A DNA stretch of 46,549 nt, taken from the NCBI GenBank assembly GCA_015063455.1, contig SVUC01000003.1, positions 1-46,549 on the forward strand. Direction: 5' to 3'. The notes under the pieces are model-generated. The model was not told the origin of the DNA. It searched no databases and saw nothing but the letters and a program-made list of their open reading frames with translations. The position numbers were made by a program, and so were the translations under genes. Positions 1,025-41,635 of the stretch are shown one piece after another (within the stretch, counting starts at the first letter, position 1; each line of letters starts with the position of its first letter). This DNA comes from Oscillospiraceae bacterium (GTDB lineage: Bacteria > Bacillota > Clostridia > Oscillospirales > CAG-272).

Positions 1025-1471
1025 TTTTAGGGAAGCAATTTGCCGGATGCAAATTGCAATAGGTTTTCTTTGTCCTTACTCACCGAAGGTGAGTGGGCGG
1101 ACGGCGCACAAACTACTTTCATTCGGAAAGTGATTCAAGCCACACCTTTGTGAATACCGGCTATCAAGGGGTGAGTCGTGCAATTCACCGATGGTGAACA
1201 GCACTCCGATCCCCCCTTAAGTATCCCCCCTAAATTTACGGAAATATTGTAATCGAGACGCGACCAACAACTGCCGCGTCGATGAGGTATAACTTGAAAT
1301 TTGTACCCATAGGGGAGAATTCTTAAAGAGGGGATGTGGCATCCCGCAGGGAATGCCCCCTCTTTAAGTACCTGGATTCACAAGGACTCGGCACGAGAGT
1401 CCTTGTACGCCCCACGCGCAGTGGAAAGAAAGATCTAACGATTCGCACGAATCGTAATTTTGTGCACTCCC
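1025..1471 (+). repeat. Large multi-hairpin palindromic element, copy A
   Basis: Shares modules with copies at 9.1, 11.3, 40.5 and 41.1 kb: gcaatttgc..gcaaattgc hairpin (1035-1057), core gacgcg..cgcgtc (1257-1280), cttaaagagggg..cccctctttaag (1322-1368), acaaggactc..gagtccttgt (1380-1406). Lies between convergent genes. Confidence 0.9.
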
Positions 1472-4441: not shown

Positions 4442-4473
4442 GCGAAGAATGGCAGAAAAATATCCCGCCTTCC

Positions 4474-4502: not shown

Positions 4503-4566
4503 ATAATTGAATATCTGTAGGAAAATACAGATGTTAAATTTTAATTATATATGTTGGAGAAAAAAT

Positions 4567-5538: not shown

Positions 5539-5554
5539 ATTATTCTGAAAAAGT

Positions 5555-5590
5555 ATACTCCGCAGGCTGTTTTTTCGTCCTACGGAGTAT
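5555..5590. terminator. Hairpin after the GH28-like gene
   Basis: atactccg..cggagtat inverted repeat; no clean downstream T-tract. Confidence 0.35.
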
Positions 5591-5628
5591 TCTCAATAAA
5601 AGATATACCAAAGAAAGAGAAATTTGAA

Positions 5629-7508: not shown

Positions 7509-7569
7509 CGGAAGAAAAATCGCGCCTTATTCCAAAACGGAAAATAAAATTGACGTTACAGGTGGAATT

Positions 7570-9126
7570 ATGACATACATTAAATTTTGTGACACTACTC
7601 TCCGCGACGGTGAGCAGACACCCGGTGTGCATTTTGGTACTGCACAGAAGCTTGACATAACAAAGCGTCTTTCAAAAATGGGTGTTGATATTATCGAAGC
7701 GGGATTTCCTGCGTCATCTGTCGGAGATGCGGCGGCGGTTCGCGCGGTTGCTGAAGCGTCGGGCAGGGGCGAGCTTCACGGAGATCCTGTGATCTCAGCG
7801 CTCTCCCGCATGATACGGTCTGACATTGATGCGGCATCTGAGGCGATATCTCCCGCCAACAGACGACGGCTTCACATATTTATCGCAACAAGCGACATTC
7901 ACCTTGAAAATAAACTGAAGATCACGAGAGAAGAAGCTCTCGCAAGAATAAAAGAAAACGTAAGCTATGCGAAAGGTCTCGGCGTTTTTGACGAGATCGA
8001 GTTTTCGGCAGAGGATGCTACCCGAACAGATCCCGATTTTCTGATCGAAGCTGTACGCGCGGCGGTGTCAAGCGGAGCGGGGATCGTAAATATTCCCGAT
8101 ACTGTCGGATACACGACTCCCGATGAATTTTCACGCATCGTCAAGTCGGTGAGAGAAAATGTGGCGGGGGAATTTGAGATCAGCGTGCACTGTCACAACG
8201 ATCTCGGACTTGCGGCAGCAAACAGCCTTGCGGCGATCGAGGCGGGAGCTGTGCAGATCGAATGTACGGTAAACGGCCTCGGTGAGCGCGCGGGAAATGC
8301 GGCTATGGAAGAGATCGTGATGGCGCTCTCTGTGAGGGGAGATGTAATTCTCTCGGGCGGAGATAAGATCTTATGCGGAATAAATACACGCGAGATCGCT
8401 GAGACGAGCCGTATGGTGTCGTCGATCTCGGGTGTTGCGGTATCTCCGAACAAGGCGATCGTGGGCGCGAATGCGTTCTCTCACGCGAGCGGAATACATC
8501 AGCACGGGGTTATGGCGTCACGATCGACTTACGAGATCATGGATCCCGGGGTGATTGGTCTTTCTTCAAACAGCATCGTTCTCGGAAAGCTCAGCGGACG
8601 ACACGCTTTTGCGGACCGTGCGGCAAGTCTCGGGTACTCTCTCGATACTGCGGGAATTGATGCGGCATTTGCACGATTCAAAGAGATCGCTGACAAAAAA
8701 TCCGTGATAACGAATGATGACGTTCGTGCGATAATCGGTGAGTACCTCGACGGGCTCAGCGGAATGTATTATCTGAACACGTTCCAGATCCAATCTGGAA
8801 ATCACATAAAAGCGATGGCGCTTGTGTCGCTCAAGATACAAAACGGGGACTCCGAAGGGGAGATCGTTACCGAAGCGGCTCCGGGTGAGGGCCCGATCGA
8901 CGCGTCGTTCAATGCGATCAACCGCATTGCAGGGGCGGACGAAGCGGAGCTGATTTCCTACAACATTACTGCAATTACCGAAGGTACGGACGCTCTCGGT
9001 GAAGCCAAAGTTAAAATAAAGGTTGGCGAATCTGTCTTTACTGGCAGAGGTGTATCGACCGACGTGATCAAAGCCTCGATCAAGGCTTATCTCAGTGCGA
9101 TCAACAAGTGGAAGAATGTAAAGTGA
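7570..9126 (+). CDS. leuA: 2-isopropylmalate synthase
   Basis: [41 protein letters not shown]-terminal regulatory domain with DALGEA; start trimmed to ATG 7570. Confidence 0.9.
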   Translation: MTYIKFCDTTLRDGEQTPGVHFGTAQKLDITKRLSKMGVDIIEAGFPASSVGDAAAVRAVAEASGRGELHGDPVISALSRMIRSDIDAASEAISPANRRRLHIFIATSDIHLENKLKITREEALARIKENVSYAKGLGVFDEIEFSAEDATRTDPDFLIEAVRAAVSSGAGIVNIPDTVGYTTPDEFSRIVKSVRENVAGEFEISVHCHNDLGLAAANSLAAIEAGAVQIECTVNGLGERAGNAAMEEIVMALSVRGDVILSGGDKILCGINTREIAETSRMVSSISGVAVSPNKAIVGANAFSHASGIHQHGVMASRSTYEIMDPGVIGLSSNSIVLGKLSGRHAFADRAASLGYSLDTAGIDAAFARFKEIADKKSVITNDDVRAIIGEYLDGLSGMYYLNTFQIQSGNHIKAMALVSLKIQNGDSEGEIVTEAAPGEGPIDASFNAINRIAGADEAELISYNITAITEGTDALGEAKVKIKVGESVFTGRGVSTDVIKASIKAYLSAINKWKNVK

Positions 9127-9129
9127 GTT

Positions 9130-9645
9130 TTTGGGTATTTTTGCACTTTTGTAAGTGCATCAAATTACGATTTGCTTGATTCATTAGATTATTTTTTGGA
9201 GGAATTTGCCCGATGCAAATTCCGAATAGATTATATGCTCCTGCGCGGAGGGCGCATAAAGACCCTCGCGCCGGGTCTTTATGAATTCAGGCGCTTAAGG
9301 GAAGGCGGCAAGCCGCATCCTCCCTTAAGGATCCTACCTATTGGTGCAAACTTATAGTTATACCTCATCGACGCGGCAGTTGTTGGCCGCGTCTCGATTA
9401 CAGTATGTCCGTGGATTTAGGGGGGATTCTTAAGGGGGGATGTGCGGAGCACCCCCAGCCTTAAGCGGCTGGATTCACAAGGACCTGCCGTTAAGGTCCT
9501 TGTGCGCTGTCCGCGTAGGACATAAAGAAAAATACAATTTGCTTTGAGCAAATTGTTTCGAAAAAATCCACCGATTTGCACGAATCGAAATTTGATGCGC
9601 CCCACGCGCAGTGCGAGAAAAAACAAATGATTCGCACGAATCACA
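9130..9645 (-). repeat. Large multi-hairpin palindromic element, copy B (interior inverted)
   Basis: Core hairpin 9370-9393 is the reverse complement of that in A/C/D/E; side-hairpin pairs 9201-9223/9534-9556, 9255-9283/9476-9504, 9294-9329/9429-9465. Confidence 0.9.
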
Positions 9646-9682
9646 CCTTCAAAACAAAAAAACGACAAAGGAAACCGCAGTT

Positions 9683-11269
9683 ATGAAAATTGAGATCTTC
9701 GACACAACCCTGCGAGATGGAGAACAAGGCGCGGGAGTAGAATTTTCGCGCGATGATAAACTAAGAGTTATTCACGCACTCGATTCGCTCGGCGTATCAT
9801 ATATTGAGGCCGGAATGATCACGGATGAAAGAAGCCGTGAGTTTTTCGCATCTCTCGGGGATGTTCAGCGCGAGCTCAAAAACGCAAAAATTGCGGTGTT
9901 TACACAAACTTGCCGCGCGGGAGAGCGTGCGGACGACAGCAGACTCCTCTCTCTTGCCGCATCTTCCCCCGTTCCGACGGCGGTGATTTACGGAAAAGCG
10001 TGGCTCTATCAGGTAACAGACGTCCTGCAATCTACAGCGGACGAGAACCTACGTATGATCCGCGACAGTATTGCTTACCTCGTGGCCTCGGGCAAAGAGG
10101 TCATCTTCGACGCGGAGCATTTCTTTGATGGATATTCCGACAATCCCGCCTATGCGATCGAGGTGGTTGATGCCGCATTCAAGGCGGGCGCATCAAGAGT
10201 TGTCCTGTGCGACACGAACGGCGGTATGCTCCCCGATGTTGTTGGGCTTATAACATCCGCCGTGTGCGAAAAATATGAAAATATCGGCATCCATTGCCAT
10301 AACGATATGGGAATGGCGGTGTCGTGTACCATATCCGCTGTCCTCTCGGGCGCATCCCAGATCCACGGTACGATCTCGGGTGTCGGAGAACGCTGCGGAA
10401 ACGCCAATCTCAACACACTGATCCCCGTTCTGCAGCTCAAGCTTGGATTTGACTGCATAGGGGATAAGATCGCATCTCTCACCTCTATTGCAAGACAGGT
10501 GAACGAGGCTGCGAACCTCTCATTTAACGAAAGCGAACCGTTTGTCGGCGGATATGCCTTTACTCACAAGGCGGGCGCGCACATCGACGGAGTGAAAAAA
10601 GCTCCGCGATCGTTCGAGCATATCTCTCCCGAGACGGTTGGAAATACAAGAAATATTGTTGTCAGCGGACTCAGCGGACGCGCGGCGATCATTGAAAAAA
10701 TGGAGCTGTATATGCGTTCCCGCGGAGAAGAAGATTTCTCCTTTACAAAGGATGATCCGCGTGTGCTGAATGCGGTCGAGATGATAAAGGAGCGGGAGAC
10801 TGCGGGGTACGATTACGAGGATGCAGGTGCTTCCTTAGCCCTTGCGATCGACGATTCTCTCGGAATCAGGAGACGATTCTTCAAGCTTCTCAGCCTCAAG
10901 GTGATTGCAGGAGAGAATATTGAGGGGACCGGTGACGAATTTACCGCATCCGCGATGATAAAGATTTCGGTTGACGGCAGAGAGGAGCTCACGGCAGGCG
11001 AGGGAAACGGTCCTGTCAACGCGATTGACGAGGCTCTGCGCCGTGCGCTCAGCAGATTCTACCCGCAGATCAAGAAAATGCACCTGACGGACTACCGAGT
11101 TCGTGTGCTCGACTCCCGTGCGACCGCCTCCGCGGTTCGTGTATCGATCGAATCGACAGACGGGCATCGTGTATGGCGCACGATCGGTGTATCGTCTGAC
11201 GTTATCAATGCGAGCTGGCAGGCGCTCTGCGACTCGGTGGAGTATTTGTTGACGCTTAGTGAAGCGTGA
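9683..11269 (+). CDS. cimA: Citramalate synthase
   Basis: [37 protein letters not shown]-terminal DYRVRVLD...ASWQAL.DS typical of bacterial CimA. Confidence 0.88.
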
Positions 11270-11274
11270 TTATC

Positions 11275-11623
11275 TTTGGGCATTTTTGCACTTTTGTAAA
11301 GTGTATCAAATTACGATTTGCTTTAATTGTTAGGATTTAGGGAAGCAATTTGCCCGAGCAAATTGCAATTGGATTTTTATTGTCCTACGCGGACGGCGCA
11401 TAAGGACCTTGGCGGCAGGTCCTTATGAATCCAGCCGCTTAAGGATGGGAGTCGTGCAATTCACCGATGGTGAACAGCACTCCGATCCCCCCTTAAGAAT
11501 CCCCCCTAAAACTACGGACGGCACGTCCGTTGAGACGCGGCTAACAGCTGCCGCGTCGATGAAGATAAACTATAAGTTTTCACCCATAGGGGAGAATTCT
11601 TAAAGAGGGGATCAGGCATCCCC
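11275..11623 (+). repeat. Large multi-hairpin palindromic element, copy C (right arm truncated)
   Basis: Left arm and core match copies A/D/E; ends within the first right-arm hairpin (ggggatcaggcatcccc). Confidence 0.88.
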
Positions 11624-11678
11624 GCTGTAAGCGAAAGAAAAATAAAATTTGAAATTAAACCTCGAAAGGTATACATAT

Positions 11679-12734
11679 ATGAAAACCGTTATTCTTCTTT
11701 TTGGAGGGAAATCCTCCGAATACGAAGTCTCGCTGTCATCCGCGACAGCAGCTTATAACAATATTGATAAGGAAAAATTTAACGTCATCACCGTGGGTAT
11801 CTCCCGCGAGGGCAGATTCTACCTCTATAACGACGATCCCGCAATGATCGCCGCCGACAGCTGGATGAATGGCGTGAAATATCCCCTGTCCGTTGACCTC
11901 GCCGAAGGCTGCCTCACTTACGAGCGCGACGGGAAGGTCGAGAAGATCAACGCAGACGCAGTCCTTCCTATGATCCACGGAAAATTTTGCGAGGACGGTA
12001 CCCTCCAGGGTATGTTCGCTGTCGCAGGAATCCCGATCGTCGGATGCGATTGTCAGTCATCTGCCGTTTGTATGGATAAAGCTGTAACAAAGGCGATCAT
12101 TGATAACCAGACGGGGATCCGTCAGGCGAAGGCGGTCGTCGTCCGTCAGTCTGATGTGAAAAATCCCGCCGATGCCGATGCTATCCGCGAAAAATGCGAG
12201 CGTGAGATCGGATACCCGATGTTCGTCAAGCCCGCGAGAGCAGGTTCTTCCGTTGGAGTCACAAAGGTCAAGTCGGCTGAAAAATTTGCCGAGGCTCTGA
12301 TGGCAGCACTTGATGAGGACTCAAAGGTTCTCATTGAAGAATCTATCCTCGGTCCCGAGATCGAAGTTGCGGTTCTCGAGGAGAGCGGAGTTTATACCGT
12401 CGCACATCCCGCAGAGATCGACAAGGGATCTGCCGAATTTTACGATTACGAGACAAAATATATCAGCGATGCGTCATCCTTCTATCTTCCCGCGAGACTC
12501 AGCGAGGAAAAAATGTGCGAGGTTATGGGGTATGCCGAGACGATCTTCAAGGCTCTTGACTGCAGAGCGTTCTCGAGAGTCGACTTCTTCTATACGCCCG
12601 AGGGCGAGTTCGTGTTCAACGAGATCAACACTCTCCCGGGATTTACCCCCATCTCAATGTACCCCAAAATGATGATGAATGAAGGAATCGCGTATTCTGA
12701 GATACTTGAAAGACTCATCTCGACCGCAAAATAA
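11679..12734 (+). CDS. ddl: D-alanine--D-alanine ligase
   Basis: LFGGKSSEYEVSL, HGKFCEDG, KPARAGSSVG, FYDYETKY, NEINTLPGFT. Confidence 0.92.
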   Translation: MKTVILLFGGKSSEYEVSLSSATAAYNNIDKEKFNVITVGISREGRFYLYNDDPAMIAADSWMNGVKYPLSVDLAEGCLTYERDGKVEKINADAVLPMIHGKFCEDGTLQGMFAVAGIPIVGCDCQSSAVCMDKAVTKAIIDNQTGIRQAKAVVVRQSDVKNPADADAIREKCEREIGYPMFVKPARAGSSVGVTKVKSAEKFAEALMAALDEDSKVLIEESILGPEIEVAVLEESGVYTVAHPAEIDKGSAEFYDYETKYISDASSFYLPARLSEEKMCEVMGYAETIFKALDCRAFSRVDFFYTPEGEFVFNEINTLPGFTPISMYPKMMMNEGIAYSEILERLISTAK

Positions 12735-12787
12735 AATTTTGTTCAGCTGATTTGCTCACTTGAGACGCGTGAGAAAAAAGTTAGGTA

Positions 12788-12816
12788 TTGATTTTTTCTC
12801 ATTTGTCGGTTATAAT
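12788..12816 (+). promoter_or_regulatory. Sigma-A promoter
   Basis: TTGATT-17bp-TATAAT upstream of the M23 gene. Confidence 0.55.
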
Positions 12817-12921
12817 ATATAATAGGCAGAATATAAGTAAACGTGTTTTCGTATCGGATAACTTTTTCGTGCGGAAATACACAAAAATATACATAAAGTA
12901 AAACAGAGAGGATGGTACGCC

Positions 12922-14577
12922 GTGAAAAATAAAATTATTATCACAATAGTCGTACTTTTGTGCTTCATCCCGACACTCGCAGCAGTGCTCAGTTACCGTC
13001 AGGTGCAGAACGCTCCCATTGACGAGAACACCGCTGTTGCGATCACGATCAAGGATATCAACCAGAAGGAATACGTCCTGACCCGTGAGACAGACGGTGA
13101 AGAAGCTGAGGCGCTTATAAAATTCTTCCTCACGATGAAGAAAAATTCACAGGCGATCCCTGCGCTTCCCACATCTCTTACAGGCGAGAAGTGCTATGTG
13201 GTCACAGTTTCGAGCAATGTGAAAAAAGAATCATACGAATGTTATTTTTCACAGGATCCTGCGACAAACTATTTTGTCTCAAACAACGGAACTGCCCACA
13301 AGATCAGCGAAGAGGATGCTAAGCAGTTTATAACCAGCGTTTACGCTGAGAGTCTTTACGACGACTCAACAATTCCGACACTTCTTCTGTCGCACGAGTA
13401 TTATGTAACTCCCGACAGTGCGATCTGGCAGTACAAAAACTACACGGGCGACTACGTTGACAGAAACGTTGACGAGCTTATAAATCCCGTTATGGAATCG
13501 TTCGAGATTGAAGGCGGACTTGATCTTGCGTTCAGCCACAATCCCGATTACTGTACTGTAAAGGTTACCGACGCGAAGAACGGATCGGTTCTCTTCGAGG
13601 ATATTCTCTCGAATCTTTCTCTGTTCAGACTTGACAACACAAAAGAGGTTGAGGTTACTGTTACAGCTAAGTGGTACGACGATCCCGGCAGATCATTCTG
13701 CGGTGAGCTTGGCTTCTCATTCGGATCTCTCGTTACTGCACCTGCTGAATTCTACCTCGGCATGACCACTGTTGAATCGGGTAAGTTTACTGCGATCACA
13801 GCTCTCAACGTAACACGTCCCGAGAAGATCGAATTTGTATCCACACTCCCGAACGGTGTGACACCGAAGTTCTTCGATGCAGGCGACAACAGAGCGGTAG
13901 CTCTTCTTCCGATCAACGCTGACTGTCCTTCGGGCATTTACACTCTGACATTCTCCTACGGCGGAGTAACACAGAACACAAATCTGACGATCGAAAATCC
14001 CGGTCCGAAGTATTCATACTACACAGTTCCCGCAAGTGTTGTTTCGGTTTACAGAACGACTGCAGCTCTCGAGCAGTTTGAAAATGCTACTCAGGAGATC
14101 ATGGCGAAGTCTGTGACAACGAGACACTTCTCAGGTCACTTCATACTTGGTGTGACAGGAAACTACCAGCTTATGCGAGGATTCGGCAGAGACGTATACC
14201 TCAACAACAGCACAACGGTTACATACCGCAACAACGGTGTTGACTACACGGCGGCTGCGGGATCTGACATTGTTGCGTGCAACGCAGGTGAAGTTGTATA
14301 TGTTGGAATCCTTGATTATGCAGGAAACATTGTCGTAATTGATCACGGTTGGGGACTCAAGACGTGGTACTACAATCTCGGTTCTGTTACAGCCACAGTT
14401 GGTGACGTTGTAACACGCGGACAGAAGATCGGTACTGCAGGTCAGACAGGCTTCACGGGTGCGGTTGGCGCACACATTGCGATGTCGGTTGGAAATCAGT
14501 TTGTATCTCCTTACGACACTTGGTCTGACAGTCCTATCGCCGGTAAAGTTATAATTGCAAAGATTGATGAGCGCTGA
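12922..14577 (+). CDS. Exported/membrane-anchored protein with C-terminal degenerate M23 (LytM) domain
   Basis: N-terminal hydrophobic segment; GVDY, GNIVVIDHGWG, VGDVVTRGQKIGTAGQTG; Zn/catalytic His positions substituted. Confidence 0.8.
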   Translation: MKNKIIITIVVLLCFIPTLAAVLSYRQVQNAPIDENTAVAITIKDINQKEYVLTRETDGEEAEALIKFFLTMKKNSQAIPALPTSLTGEKCYVVTVSSNVKKESYECYFSQDPATNYFVSNNGTAHKISEEDAKQFITSVYAESLYDDSTIPTLLLSHEYYVTPDSAIWQYKNYTGDYVDRNVDELINPVMESFEIEGGLDLAFSHNPDYCTVKVTDAKNGSVLFEDILSNLSLFRLDNTKEVEVTVTAKWYDDPGRSFCGELGFSFGSLVTAPAEFYLGMTTVESGKFTAITALNVTRPEKIEFVSTLPNGVTPKFFDAGDNRAVALLPINADCPSGIYTLTFSYGGVTQNTNLTIENPGPKYSYYTVPASVVSVYRTTAALEQFENATQEIMAKSVTTRHFSGHFILGVTGNYQLMRGFGRDVYLNNSTTVTYRNNGVDYTAAAGSDIVACNAGEVVYVGILDYAGNIVVIDHGWGLKTWYYNLGSVTATVGDVVTRGQKIGTAGQTGFTGAVGAHIAMSVGNQFVSPYDTWSDSPIAGKVIIAKIDER

Positions 14578-14680
14578 CGTGATTTTTGAAAAATCTTGCC
14601 GTTAGACAGAATTCTCAACTGAATTGCTTAGATTTGAACGGTATACAGTTGGCTGAATCAGATAAAAAATAAAAATAACG

Positions 14681-14716
14681 ACCGTACGTAAGACTAACCT
14701 CGCGCGTACGGTTTGT
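14681..14716 (+). terminator. Probable intrinsic terminator
   Basis: accgtacg...cgtacggt followed by ttgtt. Confidence 0.45.
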
Positions 14717-14769
14717 TGATAATTGGGGTTATTTCCTCATTTTAAGTTGAAATTTACGGAGCGTATTTT

Positions 14770-17700
14770 ATGCTTAATTTGATTATCGGGCGATCGGGTA
14801 CGGGAAAATCCCGCAAGATCTGCGAGATGATAAAAGAAGATATTGGAAAAAAGCGGCAGGTCGTTCTGATCGTTCCCGAGCAGGAAACGGTTGACTGGGA
14901 GACGCGGATGGCGGGAGAGCTTCACGTTTCATCAAATCTTTATCTCGAAGTGACGAATTTCACCCGTCTTGCGAATTCTGTCGGACGAGTTTTCGGTGGA
15001 CTTTGCGATACTGTAATTGATGAAGGCTCTCGTTCGCTTCTTGTGTGGCGCGCGATGCTCTCTGTTTGGGAATCTCTTGAGATATACAAAAACAATCTTC
15101 TCGGAGATCGTGAGGACAGGAACATTCCGCATCTGATGCGTGCGATCGACGAGCTGAAGGGAAGCGGGATATCGCCCCTTGAGGCTGAGAATGCACTCAG
15201 ACTTCTGACCGCTGAGGCAGAAGAGAATGGGCAGAACGATGGTGGTACGGCTGACGCATTAACGAGGCGGTCTGAGGGAGATTTGATCTCACGTCTGAAT
15301 GATGCGATCCTTGTTTATTCCGCATACGAGGCTATCTTGCATGAGGACTACATAGACCGAGGGGATCTTCTTATAAATCTTGCAAATCAGCTTAAGACCT
15401 GCAGATATTTTGAAGGAAAAAAGGTATATATTGATTCATTTTTCTCCTTGACAAAGCCCGAGATGACGATTCTCTCGCAGATGATATCGCAGAGCGAGGG
15501 TGTTACGGTGACGTTTATGTGTCCTCCGACGGCAGACGGGGCTGTAAATGAGGACGAAATACAGTTCGGTGAGGTGCGCGATTATCTCAGACGTGTGAGA
15601 TCTCTTGCCGCGAGGATCGGGGTGGAGGAGAACATCATCCCGATGCAGGAGAACCGCAGGCACGAAGGATGTGACGATCTCAGACTTCTTGAGAAGGAAA
15701 TTTTCGCATACTCGGAAGTGTCCGGCACAGGATCGGACGGTGAGGACAGCTCGGACAGCGTCAGCATAATCAGTTGTGCTGACAGATACGATGAAGCGGA
15801 GGCTTGTGCGGCGATAATCGACCGACTTGTGCACGAGGGATACAAATACTCCGACATTGCGGTTGTGGCGAGAGATATTAGCACCCGCGAGGGAATAATT
15901 GACACCGTAATCAGACGTCACGGCGTGCGATGCTTTATGGCGAAGGCAAATGACGTCTCGCGTACTCCTGCGGTGAGATTTGTTATGGCGGTTATGTCTG
16001 TTATCGCGGACGGCTGGCAGAGGGAAGATATTATTTCTCTCGTCAAAACGGGACTCACGCCGCTCGGAAAATCGGGTGACGATTGGGAAGAGGATATTCT
16101 CGAGAGATACACAACAACGTGGAATATCTCCGGCAGACGAATGTACACGGCAGACGCGTGGTCAATGAACCCCGACGGATACAAAACGGAGATCACGGAA
16201 CGCGGCGCGGAGATCATACGGATCGCAAACGAAGCGAAAGAAAAGCTTATCCCGCCTCTTGAGAGGCTGGCGGAGAGCTTCGACGACGGAAAGATCAGCG
16301 CACGAGCAATTGCTGAGGGAATTGTTTCCCTCGCGGGTGATTATGAAATTTACGTCGGACTTGAGGAGATCGCAAGATCTTACGAAAGCCTCGGTATTCC
16401 CATGCAGGCGGATCAGACGAGGAGATCATGGGGATACGTCTGCGAGATCCTTGATAAAATGGTGAATATGCTCGGAGATACCTTGATGGACGCGGGCGGA
16501 TTTTTGAATCTGTTCACCCGTGTGGCGTCACTTATGGATACGGGTACGATCCCGACGGGTATTGACGAGGTCACGCTCGGAAGTGCGTCTGGTGTTCGAG
16601 TCGGTGAAGCAAAGTGCGTGATCGTTCTCGGCTCGGTCGAGGGTGAATTCCCCGCCGCTGTATCAGATGAGAAAAATTATTTCGGCGAGCGGGACAAGAT
16701 CGCGCTCGAAGCGGTTGGGCTTGAGCTCTCCTCTCCCGACAGCGATATACTCAACGCGAGAGAATATTTTATGTACTATCGAACCGTGGCGATGCCGACG
16801 GAAAAGCTGTTTGTTATCGTTCAGGGTGGAGAGAATATGTCAGAGGGTGCGCGGCGAATTGATGAAATCTTTTCTTCCTGCGGCAAAAATGTCGTGCGAA
16901 AATTCGGTGAGCTTCCCCTCGGTGAGATCGTTTACACAAAAGCGGGTGCGAGGTATCTGCTCTCACGCCGCAAATCTGAGGAAGACCGAGCTCTACTTCG
17001 CAGAATAATCGGCGTGGATGAGGTGGAAAAGAGCGGCTTGAGGGTCACCGATGCTGCGCTAGACTTTGAAGGTGAGATCCCGAGATCAATGCGCCTGTCG
17101 CAGAGCAGGATCGAGACTTTTGTGTCGTGCCCGTTCAATTACACCTGCAAGTATCTCGCGCGGATCGAGCCTGAGCCGAAGGCGGAGATCAGGTCTGTGG
17201 ATGTCGGTAATTTTGTACACAGTATTCTCGAAAAGTTTTTCGTCAGTATCCCGTCAGACAGGCTGAAATCAGCGGACTTGACGAGGGAGGAGACGGCGGC
17301 GATCGTTGACGGACTCATTGACGAATACCTTGAAGCTCTTGCAAATTCAAGCGGAAGGGCGAACGAGTTCTCGCGAGGATCGGGAAATGCACGGTTTGCG
17401 TACCTGTACGATCAGCTGAACAAAAATGTGCTTTCGTTCGTCGATGCGATAGTTGAAGAGTTCCGTGAGAGTAAATTTGAGCCTGCGGGGTACGAGGTGT
17501 CGGTCGGACTTCCCGGAAGCGCGGTCAGTGCAATCGAGCTTGAGAGTGACGATGGAATTCGTGTAATACTCGGCGGAGTCGTCGACAGGATCGACAAATA
17601 TACGGCAGAGGACGGAACGGTTTACTTCAGAATTGTCGACTACAAAACAGGGTCTAAGACGTTCTCGCTCGATGACTTGAAGCTTGGTTACGGAGTTCAG

Positions 17701-18174
17701 CTGATGATCTACCTGTTTTCGATCTGGAAATTCGGATCTGCGGCTCTGGGAGAGGGCTGCGTAGTCCCCGCGGGTGCTGAGTACTACATCACAAAACCTG
17801 CGGTTTCGACTCGCGAAAACGAAGGCTCAATTGAGCTTGACGGAGACGAATCGGTCAGAAAAATCGAGAAAAGCGGAATTTTCACCGAAAATGAGGAAAT
17901 TCTCCGTGCAATGGAGCGCGATCTTGGCGGCAGATTTGTTCCTGTGAAAGTGGGGAAGAACGGCGAGATCAAGCCATCCGACAAACATTCGGTAATTCTC
18001 GATGCGGCAAGATACTCCGAGATCTACGCAGATCTCGAAAGAACGATCGGGAAGATTGCATCAGAGATAGCTCGGGGACGTGCAGATGCGAAACCGAGAA
18101 AACACGGCGGACGCCTGCCTTGCGAATGGTGCGAGAACAAATATATTTGCAGAAATAAAATTACAATAAATTAA
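14770..18174 (+). CDS. addB: ATP-dependent helicase/nuclease subunit B
   Basis: GRSGTGKS, LIVPEQ, nuclease GVVDRID..IVDYKTG, Fe-S staple Cys (SCPF; CEWC....C). Confidence 0.92.
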   Translation: MLNLIIGRSGTGKSRKICEMIKEDIGKKRQVVLIVPEQETVDWETRMAGELHVSSNLYLEVTNFTRLANSVGRVFGGLCDTVIDEGSRSLLVWRAMLSVWESLEIYKNNLLGDREDRNIPHLMRAIDELKGSGISPLEAENALRLLTAEAEENGQNDGGTADALTRRSEGDLISRLNDAILVYSAYEAILHEDYIDRGDLLINLANQLKTCRYFEGKKVYIDSFFSLTKPEMTILSQMISQSEGVTVTFMCPPTADGAVNEDEIQFGEVRDYLRRVRSLAARIGVEENIIPMQENRRHEGCDDLRLLEKEIFAYSEVSGTGSDGEDSSDSVSIISCADRYDEAEACAAIIDRLVHEGYKYSDIAVVARDISTREGIIDTVIRRHGVRCFMAKANDVSRTPAVRFVMAVMSVIADGWQREDIISLVKTGLTPLGKSGDDWEEDILERYTTTWNISGRRMYTADAWSMNPDGYKTEITERGAEIIRIANEAKEKLIPPLERLAESFDDGKISARAIAEGIVSLAGDYEIYVGLEEIARSYESLGIPMQADQTRRSWGYVCEILDKMVNMLGDTLMDAGGFLNLFTRVASLMDTGTIPTGIDEVTLGSASGVRVGEAKCVIVLGSVEGEFPAAVSDEKNYFGERDKIALEAVGLELSSPDSDILNAREYFMYYRTVAMPTEKLFVIVQGGENMSEGARRIDEIFSSCGKNVVRKFGELPLGEIVYTKAGARYLLSRRKSEEDRALLRRIIGVDEVEKSGLRVTDAALDFEGEIPRSMRLSQSRIETFVSCPFNYTCKYLARIEPEPKAEIRSVDVGNFVHSILEKFFVSIPSDRLKSADLTREETAAIVDGLIDEYLEALANSSGRANEFSRGSGNARFAYLYDQLNKNVLSFVDAIVEEFRESKFEPAGYEVSVGLPGSAVSAIELESDDGIRVILGGVVDRIDKYTAEDGTVYFRIVDYKTGSKTFSLDDLKLGYGVQLMIYLFSIWKFGSAALGEGCVVPAGAEYYITKPAVSTRENEGSIELDGDESVRKIEKSGIFTENEEILRAMERDLGGRFVPVKVGKNGEIKPSDKHSVILDAARYSEIYADLERTIGKIASEIARGRADAKPRKHGGRLPCEWCENKYICRNKITIN

Positions 18175-18184
18175 TGTAAAAGAT

Positions 18185-21100
18185 ATGGGTAAAGTGAATT
18201 TTACTGAGTCGCAAAAGAGAGCGATTTACTTTGAAGATAAAAATCTGCTCCTGTCGGCTGCGGCGGGAAGCGGGAAAACGGCCTGTCTCAGTGCGAGGAT
18301 CGTAGAGCTCGTCGGACAGGGACGTGCGGATATTTCCGAGATGCTGATCGTGACTTTTACTAAAGCCGCAACGGCGGAAATGCGCTCGAGAATTGCCTCA
18401 GCTATGCGAAACGAGGCGGCGGAATGCAGAGCTGATGATCCTGCGCGCGCTGAGCGTTTGCGGAGAAATGCGGGAAAGATCGGATCGGCAGAAATATCCA
18501 CGATCCATTCATTTTTATACAAAAATATCAGAAAATATTTTCCTGCCGTGGGGTTCCCAAGTGACTCGAAAATAATCGATGAAGTTCGCGCGAAGAGTAT
18601 TAAAAAGCGGATAATCAAGCAGATCGTCAACTCTGAGTTCGAGAAAACGGCAGAAAGCGAGTCTCAGATGACGAATCCGTTCGTTTTGCTTGCGAACACG
18701 ATAGGTATTACCCGCGACAGCGAGAAGATCGACGAAGAGATTCTTTGGATGGTTGACAAGATCGGTGACGACACTTACGCGAATGAATATACATCCGCGG
18801 TGGATAAAATTGCGGACGGTGAGGATCTGTTTGACACCGTGTTTGGTGTAAAACTGAAGAAGAGTATATGTGACTTGGTTCGTTATTACACCGGGGTATT
18901 TGAAGTGCTCAGTCGTAAAATCGCAGAGTATCCAGAGATCGACAAAAAGTATCGCACGGCACTTGACGGTGATCTTTCGTGGTGTCGACAGATGCTCGAT
19001 CTCGTGGGTGCTCACGAGCTGAAATATGACGTCCTGAAGGATGAGTTCCTCGACTATTCACCTGCACGCTTGGGATCGGTGGGCGAAAAGCACAAAAATG
19101 AGCTTTGTGCAGATTATAAACATATCCGCGATCTGTTCAAAAAAGATCGGAGCGCATTTGCGGAGACATATTTCTGCTATTCATCAGATGAGAACAGAAG
19201 ATCCGCTGAGAAAATGAGGTCTATCACGCGGGTGCTTTACAACATTGCGCGTGAATACCGTGAGCAGCTCGAAAAAATCAAGGTGAAGAACGCCTGCATC
19301 GAGTACGATGACCTTGAGAGGATCGCGCTGAAGCTTTTTGTCGACGAAAATGGACAGCCGACAGCTATTGCGCGAGAGATCGGTGAGAAATACAAGTACA
19401 TTTTTGTGGATGAATACCAGGATACAAACGATGTGCAGGACAAAATTTTTACCGCGATCTCGGAAAATTCGGTCAGATTTATGGTCGGCGACATCAAGCA
19501 GTCGATCTACCGATTCCGCGGTGCTGAGCCGGATGTTTTCAAGAGATACAGAGACGAGTGGGGGAAGTCCGCCGAATCTGGCGGCGCGGACTCTAATGAT
19601 TTTGACTCGCGCTCGGGTGAGTCGATATTCCTCAGTGAGAATTTCCGCTGTGACGGACCTGTTATAGATTTTACGAACGCCGTTTCTCACTCAACCTTGA
19701 CCTTCGGCGGCATCGGATATCTTACTGAGGATGACCTCATAAAAGGAAAGAGAGACGGCGGGGACGAGCCTGTTGACCTTATTTTGATCGACAAAAAAAG
19801 TGTACAAAATGAAACAGATGATGGTAGCCCGGACGCGATCGACGAGGCTTCTGTGGTTGCACAGATCGTGCGAGACATGGTCGGAAGATACTCTTACGAT
19901 GCCGGAAAAATTGTTCGTCCAAGTGATTTCGCTATCATTATGCGTAGTCCGGGAGCGTCAGCGGAGAGGTACAAAGCGGCGCTCGGCAGATTCGGGATAC
20001 CTGTAAATACTGCAAAAGAATCGCCCGCGGAAGATTTCGCATCGGTAAAGCTTCTCATTTGCCTGCTCAATTTTGTGGACAATCCCTTGCGTGAGGTGTA
20101 TACGGCGGGCGCACTCATCTCTCCTGTTTTTTCGTTCACTCCTGCACAGATCGTCGCGCTCAGACGTTTATCGGACGGATTTTTGTTTAAGACGGTTTCC
20201 GATATCGCGCACGGAAATATCGAAGCTGACGAGGAAATCTGCATCAAATGTGAGCGTGTTGTGCGCTGGTATGACGCCGAAAAAACGATCGTTGGTGGTA
20301 TTTCGCTGCCCGATTACATTGAATATTTAATCAACAATAATGAATTAAACAGTATCCCTGAAGTGATAGAAGATCCGCTTGAATCCTCTGCTTTGCGGTC
20401 CTTCGCTGAGCGCGCGAGGGAGTTTGAGAACGGCTCGCTCAACCCCAAGAACAGGGGACTTTCGGCTTTCTTGCGAAGCTTGAGAGAAGACGAGATCGGC
20501 GGACAAACTGAGGGAAAAAAGAGTACGGCTGAGGATTCGGATGCGGTCTCGATTTTGAGCATCCACGCATCAAAAGGGCTCGAATACCCCGTCTGTATCA
20601 TAGCGGAGTGCGGAAAAAAGCGTAATTCCGGGGATGAAACAGGCACAATTCTCGTTGATAAGAAGTATGGCGCAGCAATGATGCTCCCATCTGAGAAGGG
20701 GCTTGAGAGGTACGACAACATCTTCCGACGGATGATCTCATCTCAGATCAGAGACGAAGCGATCAATGAAGAAATGCGGATGCTGTACGTCGCGCTCACC
20801 CGTGCGAGAAACAAGCTTATCCTCACGGCAAGCGTCAGCGATGCAGACAAAAAACTCGCGTCAGCTTCTGTTGAAAGTGAATATTGTGGTGAATATTTAA
20901 TCAAAAATAAGTCGTCTTACGTTGATTGGCTTCTTGATGCATCATTTCGGGGAGGACTCGGCGACAAGGTGAGTGTAAACGTCATTCGCACGGATCGCGT
21001 GGCAGACGATCTTGTGGGTGAGGCGGATGATGACAGCGGAGACGACGTAATTTCCGAGAGAGAGGACGAGTACGAAATCATCCGGGCGCGGATTGAGAAA

Positions 21101-25426: not shown

Positions 25427-25631
25427 TTTTTACTCTTCGTGGGTTTTTACGCTCGTTCTATTTCGCACACAACAGGACTGTTTGACTGCTGCGTATGATT
25501 GATTGTCGACTAAAGCCGTCTTACCGATACTCAAGTATCCGATACACAAGTATCCGCTAATAGATCTGATACTATTATTATATCAAAGTCGGCTGTCCTG
25601 TATGACTGTAAATTTCAGACAAAGTCTGATA

Positions 25632-25994
25632 CAAGGTAAGCTGATAAGGGATTTTTGACTACTATATACCTTGCCGGATTAAAACAAAACTTTGGAGCAA
25701 GGTCAGCTGAGATGCAATTTAGTATTACTAAATACCTTGCCGGATTAAAACAAAACTTTGGAGCAAGGTCAGCTGAGATGCAATTTAGTATTACTAAATA
25801 CCTTGCCAGGCTAAAACAAAACTTTGGAGAATTTTCCCGCGGAAAATTCTCGGGAGCAAGGTAAGCTGATATGCAGTTAAGTATTACTAAATACCTTGCT
25901 AGGCTAAAGCAACACCTTGGAGAATTTTCCCGCGGAAAATTCTCGGGAGCAAGGTCAGATAATATGCAATTTCCGATTACTAAATACCTTGCTC
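25632..25994. repeat. Tandem array of five ~44-bp palindromic boxes with 66/93-bp period
   Basis: caaggt at 25632, 25698, 25764, 25857, 25950 (66, 66, 93, 93); each box ends accttgc. Confidence 0.9.
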
Positions 25995-39333: not shown

Positions 39334-40421
39334 CAGACGTCCTCATCTTTCTCGCAGATGACGCCCGCATAAGGGGGAATCGACAGCTCAAGCTGATCTC
39401 CCGCGGAGACACTCATGTCAAGTCCGTACCGCAATGTTGTGATGCCTGTTCCGTGGACGTTGCAGGAGATACGCATTACACCGCCTGAGAAGCTGACGTC
39501 ATCGACCACTCCGTTCACCGTTGAGCTGTTGTCATTTGCGCCGACGGTGATCTTCTCACCTCGAACCGAGACGAAAACGGTGTCACCGCTTGTGTGTCCT
39601 CGTCCGCCTTCGCGGACAGTCAGAGTTGTACCCGCAAATTTTACGGTATTTTCGGAAACATAAGTGCAGGGGAGAATGTTCGAGTCTCCGACGAATCGTG
39701 CAATGTAGACGTACTCGGGAGAATCGTATATTTCGGACGGCGTGCCGATCTGGAGAAATCTGCCGTTTTTCATAACGGCGACGCGGTCTGACATATTCAG
39801 CGCTTCTTCCTGATCGTGCGTGATATATATGAACGTGATTCCGAGATCCTTTTGCAGTTTTTTGAGTTCTCCCTGCATTTCGCGTCTGAGGTTGAGATCA
39901 AGAGCGCCGAGAGGCTCGTCGAGCAGGAGTATCTTCGGTGCTGAGATCACGGCACGGGCGATTGCGACTCGCTGTTTCTGACCGCCCGAGAGGGATGAGG
40001 GGAAGCGTTTTTCGAATCCTGACATTCTCACAAGCGCGAGAGCGTCTGCGACGCGTCTGGCAATTTCAGCCGTCTGAGGCTTATTTTTTGCGATCTTCAA
40101 GGGGTATGCGACGTTGTCAAAGACGTTCATATGCGGGAAAAGCGCATAATTCTGGAAAACGGTATTTACGTCACGCTTATTCGGATCGGCGGATGTAATG
40201 TTATCTCCGGCGAGGAAGATCTCTCCCCCATCCGGGATCTCAAGGCCGCTGATGATTCGGAGAAGTGTGGTTTTTCCGCATCCCGATGATCCGAGGATCG
40301 TGAGAAACTCGCCTTCGTGTACGTCAAACGAGAGGTCGCGTATTACTTTGGTATCCCCAAAGGCTTTTGAAACCCCTTTGACTGAGAGGATAATTTCGTT
40401 TTGCCGAGTGTTTTTATCCAT
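39333..40421 (-). CDS. potA: Spermidine/putrescine ABC ATPase
   Basis: GSSGCGKT, VFQNYALFPHM, LSGGQ, LLDEP, THDQEEAL. Confidence 0.9.
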   Translation of the reverse strand: MDKNTRQNEIILSVKGVSKAFGDTKVIRDLSFDVHEGEFLTILGSSGCGKTTLLRIISGLEIPDGGEIFLAGDNITSADPNKRDVNTVFQNYALFPHMNVFDNVAYPLKIAKNKPQTAEIARRVADALALVRMSGFEKRFPSSLSGGQKQRVAIARAVISAPKILLLDEPLGALDLNLRREMQGELKKLQKDLGITFIYITHDQEEALNMSDRVAVMKNGRFLQIGTPSEIYDSPEYVYIARFVGDSNILPCTYVSENTVKFAGTTLTVREGGRGHTSGDTVFVSVRGEKITVGANDNSSTVNGVVDDVSFSGGVMRISCNVHGTGITTLRYGLDMSVSAGDQLELSIPPYAGVICEKDEDV

Positions 40422-40472
40422 TTATTAATAACCTTATTTTAAGACTATAGTTGGAATATTTTCCACAAATAT

Positions 40473-40501
40473 ATAATATCACATATCTGTGGGTGTGTCA
40501 A
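40473..40501 (-). promoter_or_regulatory. Sigma-A promoter for potABCD
   Basis: TTGACA-17bp-TATTAT with TG extension on the minus strand. Confidence 0.65.
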
Positions 40502-40542
40502 TTATTAAAAAATATTTTTGTGAATTTAAGATTTGATTTTTT

Positions 40543-41045
40543 TGAAGCAATTTGCGGGATGCAAATTGCAATAAGATTTTTATTGTCCTGCGCGGAGGGC
40601 GTATCAAATTTCATATCGCCGAGAGCGATAGATTCTTTTTCCACTGCGCGTGGGGCGCATAAGGACCTTGGCGGCAGGTCCTTATGAATCCAGCCGCTTA
40701 AGGCGGGGGTCGTATTAATTCACTGAAAGTGAATTAATACTCAGATCCCCCCTTAAGAATCCCCCCTAAAACTACGGATATAACATAAGCGGGACGCGGC
40801 CAACAACTGCCGCGTCGATGAGGTATAACTTGAAATTTGTACCCATAGGGGAGAATTCTTAAAGAGGGGATGTGGCTCCGCCACCCCCTCGTTGAGCGCC
40901 TGAATTCACAAAGACCCGGCGTGAGGGTCTTTGTGCGCCCCACGCGCAGTGGAAAGAAAGATATAACGATTTGTATGAATCGAATTTTTGTGTGCCCTCC
41001 GCGCAGTGGAAAGAAAGATCTAACGATTTAAGAAATCGTAATCTG
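40543..41045 (+). repeat. Large multi-hairpin palindromic element, copy D (extra tier)
   Basis: Perfect 21-bp inverted repeat 40638-40658/40935-40955 encloses the conserved hairpin pairs and core. Confidence 0.9.
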
Positions 41046-41055
41046 ATTAATTTAC

Positions 41056-41478
41056 TTTTAGGGAAGCAATTTGCCGGATGCAAATTGCGATAGGTTTTCT
41101 TTGTCCTACGCGGACGGCGCATAAGGACCTTGGCGGCAGGTCCTTATGAATCCAGCCGCTTAAGGAGGGGGTCGTGTTAATTCACTAAAAGTGAATTAAC
41201 ACTCAGATCCCCCCTTAAGAATCCCCCCTAAAACTACGGATATAACATAAGCGGGACGCGGCCAACAACTGCCGCGTCGATGAGGTTGAACTATAAGTTT
41301 ACACCAATAGGGGAGAATTCTTAAAGAGGGGATGTGGCATCCCGAAGGGAATGCCCCCTCTTTAAGTGCCTGGATTCACAAGGACTCGGCACGAGAGTCC
41401 TTGTGCGCCCTCCGCGTAGGAGCAATCTTCCGTGCGATTCGCACGAATCGAAATTTGATACGCCGCACGGCAGCGCAA
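41056..41478 (+). repeat. Large multi-hairpin palindromic element, copy E (tandem with D)
   Basis: tcctacgcgga.ggcgc ... gcgcc.tccgcgtagga terminal stem; the same internal modules. Confidence 0.9.
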
Positions 41479-41635
41479 ATCCTTCCACCCATAATTATGA
41501 ATAAATCCCCATAAAAATTCAAAATATAGGTTTGATTTTTACCAAAAAATAATATATGATATACATTGTATATCATAGAAAAGGTTTAATTATCGAACAA
41601 TAAGATAATGTGAACTAAAATTCAGAAGGAAAAGT

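What the first reader, a model, noticed from the sequence alone, without database searches (positions are those of the whole stretch)
40543..41478. Dispersed ~350-500 bp dyad-symmetric element folding into stacked four-way junctions (5 copies; candidate new mobile ssDNA element or structured RNA)
Seen: copies at 1025-1471, 9130-9645, 11275-11623, 40543-41045 and 41056-41478, all intergenic and with no conserved ORF. Architecture (copy E): stem P1 tcctacgcgga.ggcgc / gcgcc.tccgcgtagga; hairpin pair H1/H1' (ca[t/c]aa[g/a]gac..gtc[c/t]tt[a/g]tg); stem P2 gaatccag / ctggattc; hairpin pair H2/H2' (cttaag..cttaag-type); stem P3 gaatcccccta / taggggagaattc; then an asymmetric ~90-nt core with a gacgcgg-caacaactg-ccgcgtc hairpin. 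Copy B adds a third pair (aatttgc..gcaaatt at 9201-9223 and 9534-9556). Folded as one strand this gives a tree of 2-3 successive four-way junctions. Established: REPINs and IS200/IS605-derived non-autonomous elements are intergenic palindromes mobilised as folded ssDNA by HUH (RAYT/TnpA) enzymes, but canonical REPINs are simple doublets. Inference: a more elaborate non-autonomous element, or a structured ncRNA, whose cognate enzyme is encoded elsewhere. I cannot match it to a named family.
Basis: partly seen in the sequence, partly recalled or inferred. Interest (0 to 1): 0.88.

Follow-up and report, generated by a model that had tools for sequence, protein, structure and literature searches.

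The report
Mosaic palindromic intergenic repeat family
This is a real multi-copy family of non-coding DNA repeats, built from small hairpin units set in mirror order around a conserved centre, that fills gaps between ordinary genes in an uncultured gut Clostridia genome; it is an unusually elaborate relative of known bacterial palindromic repeats, and nothing found here shows it to be a new RNA gene or a proven mobile element.

Summary

Each element has a conserved asymmetric centre, with an invariant 8-bp hairpin GACGCGGC-N8-GCCGCGTC. It is flanked by inverted arms made of palindromic modules that are swapped, added or lost between copies.

- **Structure:** covariation supports the local hairpins. 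H1' is 99.4% paired, and 6 of its 10 pairs show compensatory changes. It gives little or no support to the long-range stems P2 and P3, or to cross-arm pairing. The "four-way junctions" therefore follow from the mirror order of hairpin units.
- **DNA, not RNA:** both strands fold equally well, G·U counts are similar on both strands, orientation to neighbouring genes is mixed, and Rfam gives no match.
- **No HUH partner found:** Y1 transposases do not track the repeat across the genus (4 of 11 against 5 of 13 genomes).
- **Relatives:** related genomes share the arm module but carry different cores.
- **Age:** no two copies exceed 90.8% identity.

Verdict: a REP/BIME/REPIN-like mosaic repeat family, a new variant of a known kind. 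How it spreads is unknown.

The parts
40543..41045 (.). Copy D, a full element; its outer arms carry a second P1-type unit on each side
41056..41478 (.). Copy E, a full element, in tandem with D and used as the reference copy
41066..41088 (+). E: outer hairpin H0 (GCAATTTGC-N5-GCAAATTGC) followed by a T-rich stretch; it scores as terminator-like, facing into the element
41104..41120 (.). E: left P1 unit, tcCTACgcggacggcgc. It can pair with the right P1 and also forms a local mini-hairpin (TCC-N5-GGA, which becomes CAC-N5-GTG in other copies)
   Evidence: helix 1: 84.1% paired, 7 of 16 pairs compensatory, many broken cells
41121..41147 (.). E: hairpin H1
   Evidence: helix 3: 88.5% paired, 6 of 9 pairs compensatory
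41148..41158 (.). E: left P2 linker/stem (gaatccagccg)
   Evidence: helix 4: 78.1% paired, 1 of 10 pairs compensatory
41159..41219 (.). E: hairpin H2 with a nested inner hairpin, which copies B and C129 lack
   Evidence: helices 5, 6
41219..41320 (+). E: conserved centre. It comprises P3 left (aatcccccctaa), a small variable hairpin, the invariant hairpin GACGCGGC-CAACAACT-GCCGCGTC (41255-41278), GATGAGG, a covarying hairpin (41284-41305) and P3 right (taggggagaattc)
   Evidence: helix 10: 98.5% paired, 7 of 8 pairs never vary; helix 11: 4 of 9 compensatory; centre 81.5% mean identity against 68-78% for the arms
41320..41366 (.). E: hairpin H2'. Two alleles occur across copies, each internally complementary
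   Evidence: helix 12: 87.7% paired, 3 of 12 compensatory
41367..41377 (.). E: right P2
41378..41404 (.). E: hairpin H1'
   Evidence: helix 16: 99.4% paired, 6 of 10 pairs compensatory
41405..41421 (.). E: right P1 unit, gcgccctccgcGTAGga. This is the arm module shared with other genomes
41422..41478 (.). E: outer right units (cgtgcgattcgcacg hairpin, aaatttgat, a further GC unit)
1025..1471 (+). Copy A. It lies between convergent genes; its left arm carries other modules, including the ctcaccgaaggtgag hairpin
9130..9645 (-). Copy B. Its core is on the minus strand and it fills the gap between two HMGL/LeuA-type genes
11275..11623 (+). Copy C. Its right arm is truncated; it lies between the second LeuA-type gene and ddl

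Best explanation
The elements are a family of non-coding intergenic DNA repeats of the REP/BIME/REPIN kind.

**Anatomy.** The building blocks are small palindromic hairpin units joined by short conserved linkers. The units sit in mirror order around an asymmetric centre of about 100 nt, so a single strand of either polarity can fold into a long rod or into a branched form.

**Shown here:**
- the copies, their strictly intergenic position, and their mosaic make-up;
- strong maintenance of each local hairpin;
- weak maintenance of the long-range stems;
- symmetry between the two strands;
- an arm module shared across a genus-level group of uncultured gut Clostridia, with species-specific centres.

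**Inferred.** The family spread in the past through some trans-acting function that recognises the hairpin arm in single-stranded nucleic acid. That function is probably not a Y1/RAYT enzyme. The copies are now old.

The hairpins stay perfect either through selection for hairpin formation or through template-switch correction of quasi-palindromes during replication. The latter mechanism is recalled knowledge, not tested here.

Because most copies begin 1-30 nt after a stop codon and lie between co-directional genes, they are probably transcribed with their neighbours. As long RNA hairpins they would then affect termination, processing or stability of those transcripts, as reported for REP/BIME and Correia elements (recalled).
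For: **Copies and position**
- 23 regions (24 elements) on 11 contigs.
- 20 elements carry the core hairpin: 18 found by pattern and 2 variants read directly.
- None overlaps an ORF of 200 aa or more by over 35 nt, although such ORFs cover 81% of the genome.
- In six co-directional gaps the element starts 1-29 nt after the upstream stop codon.

**Mosaic make-up**
- H1 variants occur on either arm, hairpins are optionally inserted, and two copies carry an insert of about 100 nt.
- One element is minimal, with only P1-H1-P1'.

**Structure counts**
- Local hairpins covary: 92 compensatory cells against 33.6 in shuffles, with 0 of 500 shuffles reaching the observed value. H1' is 99.4% paired.
- Cross-arm pairing is not above shuffles: 22 to 52 of 500 reach the observed values.
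- P2 has 1 of 10 and P3 has 0 of 10 compensatory pairs.

**Strand symmetry**
- 196 G·U among 2816 pairs on one strand against 246 among 2782 on the other. Summed energies are -3481 and -3550 kcal/mol.
- Both strands have z below -13.
- Hairpin loops on the two arms are reverse complements of each other.

**Relatives**
- The arm module is found in 11 of 24 same-genus genomes and in 0 of 16 genomes of other families.
- It also occurs in named gut Clostridia MAG records.
- It is 80-91% identical over 48-105 nt, although DnaN is only 57-78% identical.
- Centres differ between genomes. G011 has its own family, with 19 matches, all intergenic in the 13 loci examined.
- An arm module lies downstream of dnaN in G000 and in 4 of 29 relatives' loci. 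Those 4 are among the 5 closest by DnaN identity.

**Literature.** The REP literature describes REP dimers nested inside longer palindromes and dimers that fold into one large stem-loop (PMC3733652, passages read).
Against: - No mechanism of spread is shown. I found no empty site, no target duplication and no autonomous copy.
- No two copies are more than 90.8% identical, unlike active REPIN or MITE populations.
- The centre is more conserved than the arms (81.5% against 68-78%). A simple decaying repeat does not predict this, so something may constrain the centre.
- 17 of 25 blast regions lie on three contigs totalling 88 kb, one of them the dnaA region. That clustering could mean a local function.
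- Contigs bearing the element are richer in G+C (47.2% against 43.7%). Tetranucleotide PCA gives a continuum rather than two groups, so a mixed bin is not excluded.
- Any effect on transcripts is inference only.
Confidence: 0.62

Rival explanations
1. It is a REPIN-type element copied as folded single-stranded DNA by a RAYT or other Y1 HUH enzyme encoded elsewhere.
For: - Inverted doublets of hairpin units.
- The P1 units end in CTAC/GTAG, and the core hairpin stem ends in CGTC. These are the tags described for REP super-families (PMC3733652, abstract and passages).
- Positions appear conserved between species, as reported for REPINs (abstracts in the listing).
Against: - G000 has one Y1 hit, an IS200-type tnpA cut by a contig end, with no arm module upstream.
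- Y1 hits occur in 4 of 11 arm-positive and 5 of 13 arm-negative genomes.
- G001, G011 and G013 have 19, 5 and 16 arm matches and no Y1 hit. Their completeness is 94, 78 and 79%.
- There is no master sequence: the highest pairwise identity is 90.8%.
Confidence: 0.1
2. It is a classical MITE or foldback element: an internal-deletion derivative of a transposon with long terminal inverted repeats, moved by a DDE transposase.
For: - Long inverted arms and a size of 280-700 nt.
- The same arms enclose different centres in different genomes, as expected of deletion derivatives.
Against: - The ends are ragged and the most variable part, while the centre is the most conserved.
- No target duplication was recognised.
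- None of the loci examined holds arms that enclose an ORF. The genes flanked by arms are a DEAD/Lhr-type helicase and a radical SAM protein.
- TnpB and IS110 families were not found in G000, which is 81% complete.
Confidence: 0.13
3. It is a structured non-coding RNA, either a gene or a cis-regulatory leader or trailer, that folds into the branched form.
For: - Very stable folds.
- Strong covariation in the local hairpins.
- A centre more conserved than the arms.
- One RNA library holds short contigs from this region, which does not show transcription.
Against: - No Rfam match.
- Both strands fold alike, and G·U counts show no clear asymmetry.
- My hand tally for the nine copies between co-directional genes gives 115 G·U on the sense strand and 100 on the antisense strand (from and the gene strands).
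- The core lies sense in 4 and antisense in 5 of those nine copies.
- Loops are reverse complements on the two arms.
- P2 and P3 lack compensatory support.
- The conserved block of the G011 family shows 0 of 18 predicted pairs with compensatory change.
- 24 or more copies per genome is unusual for an RNA gene.
Confidence: 0.08
4. It is a host-serving chromosomal element, for example a two-way terminator or insulator, or a site for a nucleoid or replication protein, kept in place by selection rather than spread as selfish DNA.
For: - It is dense around dnaA-dnaN-gyrB-gyrA.
- The same gap downstream of dnaN is occupied in 4 of the 5 closest relatives.
- The outer hairpins score as terminator-like and face inward.
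- The arm is conserved across species.
Against: - Copies also sit in gaps between divergent genes. My tally is 5 of 18 elements with both flanks known.
- Module content varies freely.
- 13 of 24 same-genus genomes gave no arm match.
- The terminator scan over the D/E region was not above shuffles: 2 found against 1.8 expected.
Confidence: 0.07

Closest known systems
REP sequences and BIMEs of Enterobacteria (bacterial interspersed mosaic elements)
   Same: Both are extragenic. Both are mosaics of palindromic units in opposed orientation joined by conserved linkers, are variable in composition, and often lie between co-directional genes. This description of BIMEs comes from the abstract of PMC3333891 (listing) and from recall.
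   Different: These elements are much larger (280-700 nt), with three or more nested layers and a conserved asymmetric centre. The sequences are not evidently related, though I made no direct comparison. The host is an uncultured Clostridia lineage, and there is no associated Y1 transposase.
REPINs with their RAYT transposases
   Same: Both have inverted doublets of hairpin units that can fold into one long hairpin. Both appear to be inherited vertically, with occupied positions shared between species (abstracts in the listing).
   Different: There is no RAYT and no near-identical copies or master sequence. The elements have multi-layer arms and a long centre.
REP dimers nested in longer palindromes (for example GTAG-15 dimers of Anabaena variabilis)
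   Same: Palindromic units sit inside larger palindromes, giving nested dyads. CTAC/GTAG and CGTC tags are present (PMC3733652, passages read).
   Different: Those cases have one layer of nesting and short units. No Clostridia or Firmicutes are mentioned in that paper (0 occurrences of either word).
Correia/NEMIS, ERIC, and RUP/BOX-type MITE-like repeats
   Different: Those have defined ends and, for Correia, a target duplication. Here the ends are ragged and no duplication was seen.

Membership tests
REPIN/RAYT system | Two REP hairpins in inverted orientation that can form one long hairpin | tested here: met
   The arms are inverted copies of P1+H1 units. The minimal copy on C12 is a single long palindrome.
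REPIN/RAYT system | A cognate Y1 (RAYT) gene in the same genome, typically flanked by the REPs | tested here: not met
   The one Y1 hit in G000 is of IS200 type, with unrelated upstream sequence. Y1 hits occur in 4 of 11 arm-positive and 5 of 13 arm-negative genomes. The genomes are incomplete (61-97%).
REPIN/RAYT system | A population with many identical or near-identical copies (a master sequence) | tested here: not met
   Across the 17 aligned copies, the highest pairwise identity is 90.8% and the mean is 77.1%.
BIME / REP mosaic | An extragenic mosaic of palindromic units with conserved linkers and variable composition | tested here: met
BIME / REP mosaic | Units that belong to the enterobacterial REP sequence classes | not tested
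   I made no direct sequence comparison with E. coli REPs. The host is a Clostridia MAG, judging from the record titles of relatives.
MITE | Terminal inverted repeats with defined ends | tested here: inconclusive
   Long inverted arms are present, but the outer ends differ between copies and no common terminus was found.
MITE | Target-site duplication and filled/empty alleles | tested here: inconclusive
   No clean skip of an element appeared in the laid contigs. The closest Ddl locus in metagenomes is 74% identical, which is too distant to give an empty site.
MITE | A related autonomous element with the same ends and a transposase | tested here: not met
   None was found among the loci examined. 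TnpB and IS110 were not found in G000. This was not an exhaustive search.
Any Rfam RNA family | A match to a covariance model | tested here: not met
   The whole window gave 0 matches at gathering scores. Over 40400-41600 the best E-value was 0.62, far below any gathering score. Four relatives' loci gave one chance-level hit.
Structured RNA (generic) | Strand-specific structure: G·U tolerated on one strand, fixed orientation, long-range covariation | tested here: not met

The most novel reading that the evidence does not exclude
This is a REPIN-like but RAYT-independent system. A hairpin arm module is kept under constraint across a whole genus-level clade of uncultured gut Clostridia and is recognised by an unidentified, non-Y1 enzyme or host factor. 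Each species carries its own homogenised centre at partly orthologous intergenic positions, including the dnaA-dnaN-gyrB region. That would be a new class of long-lived intragenomic replicator, or a domesticated piece of chromosome architecture.
Probability: 0.18. Interest if true: 0.7.

Novelty: new variant of a known kind. Interest (0 to 1): 0.4.

Why it matters
Palindromic intergenic repeats are well studied in Proteobacteria and little described in gut Clostridia. This family is unusually large and deeply nested, and it breaks short-read assemblies: 5 of 23 regions abut contig ends, and many contigs of a related MAG begin or end in the arm module.

It has no Y1 partner, yet its arm is conserved between species whose DnaN proteins are only 57-78% identical. 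That combination makes it a useful test of whether REPIN-like persistence can exist without a RAYT, and of what keeps hairpins perfect in diverged repeats.

For annotation, the practical point is that these stretches should be masked as repeats and not called as RNA genes.

Tried and rejected
**Core inversion in copy B.** I rejected this. The at/ac variants of H1 occur on either arm in different copies, so the arms do not mark orientation.

**Public reads.** The DNA runs X1, X2 and X4 and the RNA run X13, laid on window 1-20000, gave only short, low-depth contigs. No joint skips an element cleanly, and the joints listed have short sides of 20-44 letters or link different copies. This gave no information on insertion polymorphism or transcription.

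**Close strains for empty sites.** A metagenome scan with Ddl returned 63 loci. The best is 74% identical, and blastn at E<=1e-4 listed no hit to copy E in any of them.

**Core pattern elsewhere.** It gave 0 hits in genome contigs; the window's own genome may be left out of that collection.

**Plasmids, phages and viral contigs.** There was no match in plasmids or phages. The arm pattern gave 1 hit among viral contigs, which I did not examine.

**Conserved block of the G011 family as an RNA.** RNAalifold gave -6.5 kcal/mol and 0 of 18 pairs with compensatory change.

**Mixed-bin test.** Tetranucleotide PCA gave a G+C continuum with element-bearing contigs towards the high end and no clear second cluster. 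I left this undecided.

**Promoter and terminator scans.** Over D/E, promoter-like sites numbered 6 against 3.0 expected and terminator-like sites 2 against 1.8. Over B/C, terminator-like sites numbered 7 against 3.3. This is weak.

**Not done.** Target-site duplications were not sought systematically, because the outer ends could not be defined. Supplementary files of papers were not consulted. Fremin & Bhatt 2021 (PMC8040213) was seen only as a listing; its candidate RNA motifs may include this repeat, and I did not check.
Full report
**Observation.**
- The window is contig C35 of a 2.2-Mb, 154-contig genome bin that is 81% complete.
The repeat finder groups them, and blastn of copy E aligns copies A-D at E-values of 1e-65 to 1e-110.
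- The core pattern occurs five times in the window against none in 100 shuffles.
- The named stems and hairpins can be read directly.
- Copy E folds with z = -13.6 as DNA on the + strand and z = -15.6 as RNA on the - strand.

**Census and position.**
- Using all five copies as queries, the genome holds 25 blast regions. These merge into 23 regions, or 24 elements, on 11 contigs.
- Eighteen elements carry the core GACGCGGC-YAAYANCT-GCCGCGTCGATGAGG with at most 5 mismatches. Two more have variant cores.
- One element, C12:5159-5402, is a minimal P1-H1-P1' palindrome without a centre. Three are cut by contig ends.
- Five of the 23 regions touch a contig end, so the true number is higher.
- None overlaps an ORF of 200 aa or more by over 35 nt, although such ORFs cover 81% of the genome.
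- In six co-directional gaps the element begins 1-29 nt after the upstream stop codon.
- The neighbouring genes are ordinary:
  - a SpoIIE-type phosphatase, two LeuA-type genes, ddl and addB;
  - a histidine kinase and its response regulator, carB and pyrK;
  - on C108, the region mnmE-jag-yidC ... dnaA-dnaN-gyrB-pfkB-gyrA, with an element in almost every gap.
- Seventeen of the 25 blast regions lie on three contigs totalling 88 kb.
- Element-bearing contigs are richer in G+C (47.2% against 43.7%). Tetranucleotide PCA shows a continuum, so a mixed bin is neither shown nor excluded.

**Anatomy.** I aligned 18 copies oriented by the core, and then 17 copies from P1 to P1'.
- *Conserved centre.* The stretch GATCCCCCCTTAAGAATCCCCCCTAAA ... 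core ... TAGG..TTCTTAA.G.GGGATG averages 81.5% pairwise identity. The arms average 68-78%.
- *Mosaic arms.* They are built from palindromic units.
  - H1 occurs as aaggac/gtcctt, aaagac/gtcttt or aagagg/cctctt, on either side of the centre.
  - H2' has two alleles, each internally complementary.
  - A ctcaccgaaggtgag hairpin is optional.
  - Two copies carry an insert of about 100 nt.
  - the hairpin H0;
  - 'atcaaattt' followed by a cgatt..aatcg hairpin;
  - extra P1-type units, in tandem in copy D.
- *Copy B.* Its apparent core inversion is therefore not an inversion.

**Which structure is conserved.**
- The minimum-energy fold of copy E is an extended rod (-183.9 kcal/mol).
- Counting pairs on the 17-copy alignment for the branched form gives:
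  - 83.8% of cells paired;
  - 92 compensatory cells against 33.6 in shuffles (0 of 500 shuffles as high);
  - a covariation score of 0.147 against 0.041-0.065 when partners are slid by 1-3 columns.
- The signal lies in the local hairpins:
  - H1' is 99.4% paired, with 6 of 10 pairs compensatory.
  - H1 is 88.5% paired, with 6 of 9 compensatory.
  - The outer stem of H2' is 87.7% paired, with 3 of 12 compensatory.
- The long-range stems are weaker:
  - P1 is 84.1% paired with 7 of 16 pairs compensatory, but 4-10 of 17 cells are broken at seven of its columns.
  - P2 is 78.1% paired, with 1 of 10 compensatory.
  - P3 is 82.8% paired, with 0 of 10 compensatory.
- The rod, with cross-arm pairing of the H regions, is not above shuffles: 22-52 of 500 reach the observed values.
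- P1 also forms a local mini-hairpin with two compensatory changes (TCC-N5-GGA against CAC-N5-GTG). Some copies have a different P1 type on each arm (C108a, C108c, A).
- The conserved units are therefore the local hairpins. The junctions follow from their mirror arrangement.
- These copies are related to one another, so the shuffle counts are not probabilities.

**DNA or RNA.**
- Oriented by the core, the two strands give 196 G·U among 2816 pairs and 246 among 2782. Summed energies are -3481 and -3550 kcal/mol.
- I re-oriented the nine copies between co-directional genes by the direction of transcription. My hand tally, and the gene strands, is 115 G·U on the sense strand and 100 on the antisense strand.
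- The core is sense in 4 and antisense in 5 of those nine copies.
- Hairpin loops on the two arms are reverse complements of each other.
- Rfam gives nothing.
- These points favour a symmetry at the DNA level over a strand-specific RNA.

**Enzyme.**
- G000 has one Y1_Tnp hit. It is an IS200-type tnpA cut by a contig end, and its upstream sequence is unrelated to the arms.
- TnpB and IS110 families were not found in G000, which is 81% complete.
- Across 53 genomes of the genus, 21 have a Y1 hit.
- Among the 24 genomes also searched for the element, Y1 hits occur in 4 of 11 arm-positive and 5 of 13 arm-negative genomes.
- Genes flanked by arms in a related MAG are a DEAD/Lhr-type helicase and a radical SAM protein.

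**Relatives.**
- Full-length copies occur only in G000. The arm module (P2'-H1'-P1', 48-105 nt, 80-91% identical) occurs in 11 of 24 same-genus genomes and in 0 of 16 genomes of other families.
- An arm-pattern scan of 185,579 species genomes found 39 stretches. Most come from uncultured gut Clostridia MAG records, one of which has many contigs that begin or end in the module. A few hits in unrelated phyla are about what chance would give.
- DnaN of these relatives is only 57-78% identical to that of G000. The arm is therefore far better conserved than neutral intergenic DNA should be at this distance; this last step is inference.
- In relatives the same arms enclose other, longer centres.
- G011 has its own family. 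There are 19 matches to a block of about 150 nt beginning TGTCAATCGAAC. All 13 loci examined are intergenic with no ORF inside, and there is no structural covariation.
- A short motif, GT(C)AATCGA followed by GACG, is shared by the centres of G000, G011 and G015. The centres may therefore be distant homologues.
- An arm module lies in the gap downstream of dnaN in G000 and in 4 of 29 relatives' loci. Those 4 are among the 5 closest by DnaN identity, and the fifth locus is truncated. In G011 that copy is a decayed half element.
- This suggests either long residence at orthologous sites or a shared hot spot.

**Age.**
- The highest pairwise identity is 90.8% (E with the C49 copy) and the mean is 77.1%. 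Nearest neighbours are often on other contigs.
- Some right arms are identical between copies whose left arms differ. This points to exchange of modules between copies.
- There is no sign of recent amplification.

**Interpretation.**
- The best reading (confidence 0.62) is a REP/BIME/REPIN-like mosaic repeat family. It is a new variant in size, depth of nesting, host and lack of a Y1 partner.
- How it spread is unknown. That it is co-transcribed and acts as an RNA hairpin is inference.
- The rival readings are a RAYT-driven REPIN (0.10), a classical MITE (0.13), a structured RNA (0.08) and a host-serving element (0.07).
- The REP literature already describes dimers nested in longer palindromes, and dimers that fold as one large stem-loop (PMC3733652, passages read).
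- The abstracts on REP-BIME and REPINs were seen only in search listings.

Noticed in passing
window 25628-25993: An intergenic tandem array with periods of 66 and 93 nt (2.5-2.6 copies, 88-96% matches). Its unit contains GCAAGGT...ACCTTGC inverted ends and, in the longer units, a GGAGAATTTTCCCGCGGAAAATTCTC palindrome. It is unrelated to the finding.
   Followed up: partly
G000 contig C146:12027-12293 (L062 1465-1728): An IS200-type Y1 transposase gene cut by the contig end. Upstream lie a CCACGCGTTAGACGCGTGG hairpin and a leader with complementary ends. It is the only Y1 hit in the bin.
   Followed up: partly
L014 (contig C108) 11905-12020 and 16130-16230: Two copies of the element carry the same insert of about 100 nt inside hairpin H2'. 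The insert has its own palindrome (ggaaatattccgcgtggaatatttcc), which suggests a second small repeat that lands inside the first.
   Followed up: no
L014 (contig C108) 9316-10243: About 900 nt between the element downstream of dnaA and the dnaN start hold no ORF of 150 aa or more. This may be the dnaA-dnaN origin region or another non-coding feature.
   Followed up: no
whole bin G000: Contig G+C runs from 39% to 49% as a continuum. Element-bearing contigs lie towards the high end (47.2% against 43.7%), so the bin may mix strains or species.
   Followed up: partly
L084 (G022) 2847-3594: In another genome of the genus, the gap downstream of dnaN holds a different foldback. Its 40-nt arms are 98% complementary and 668 nt apart, with a second nested pair, and the sequence is unrelated to this family.
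   Followed up: no
window 7480-11269: Two adjacent HMGL/LeuA-type genes (548 and 552 aa) are separated only by copy B of the element.
   Followed up: no
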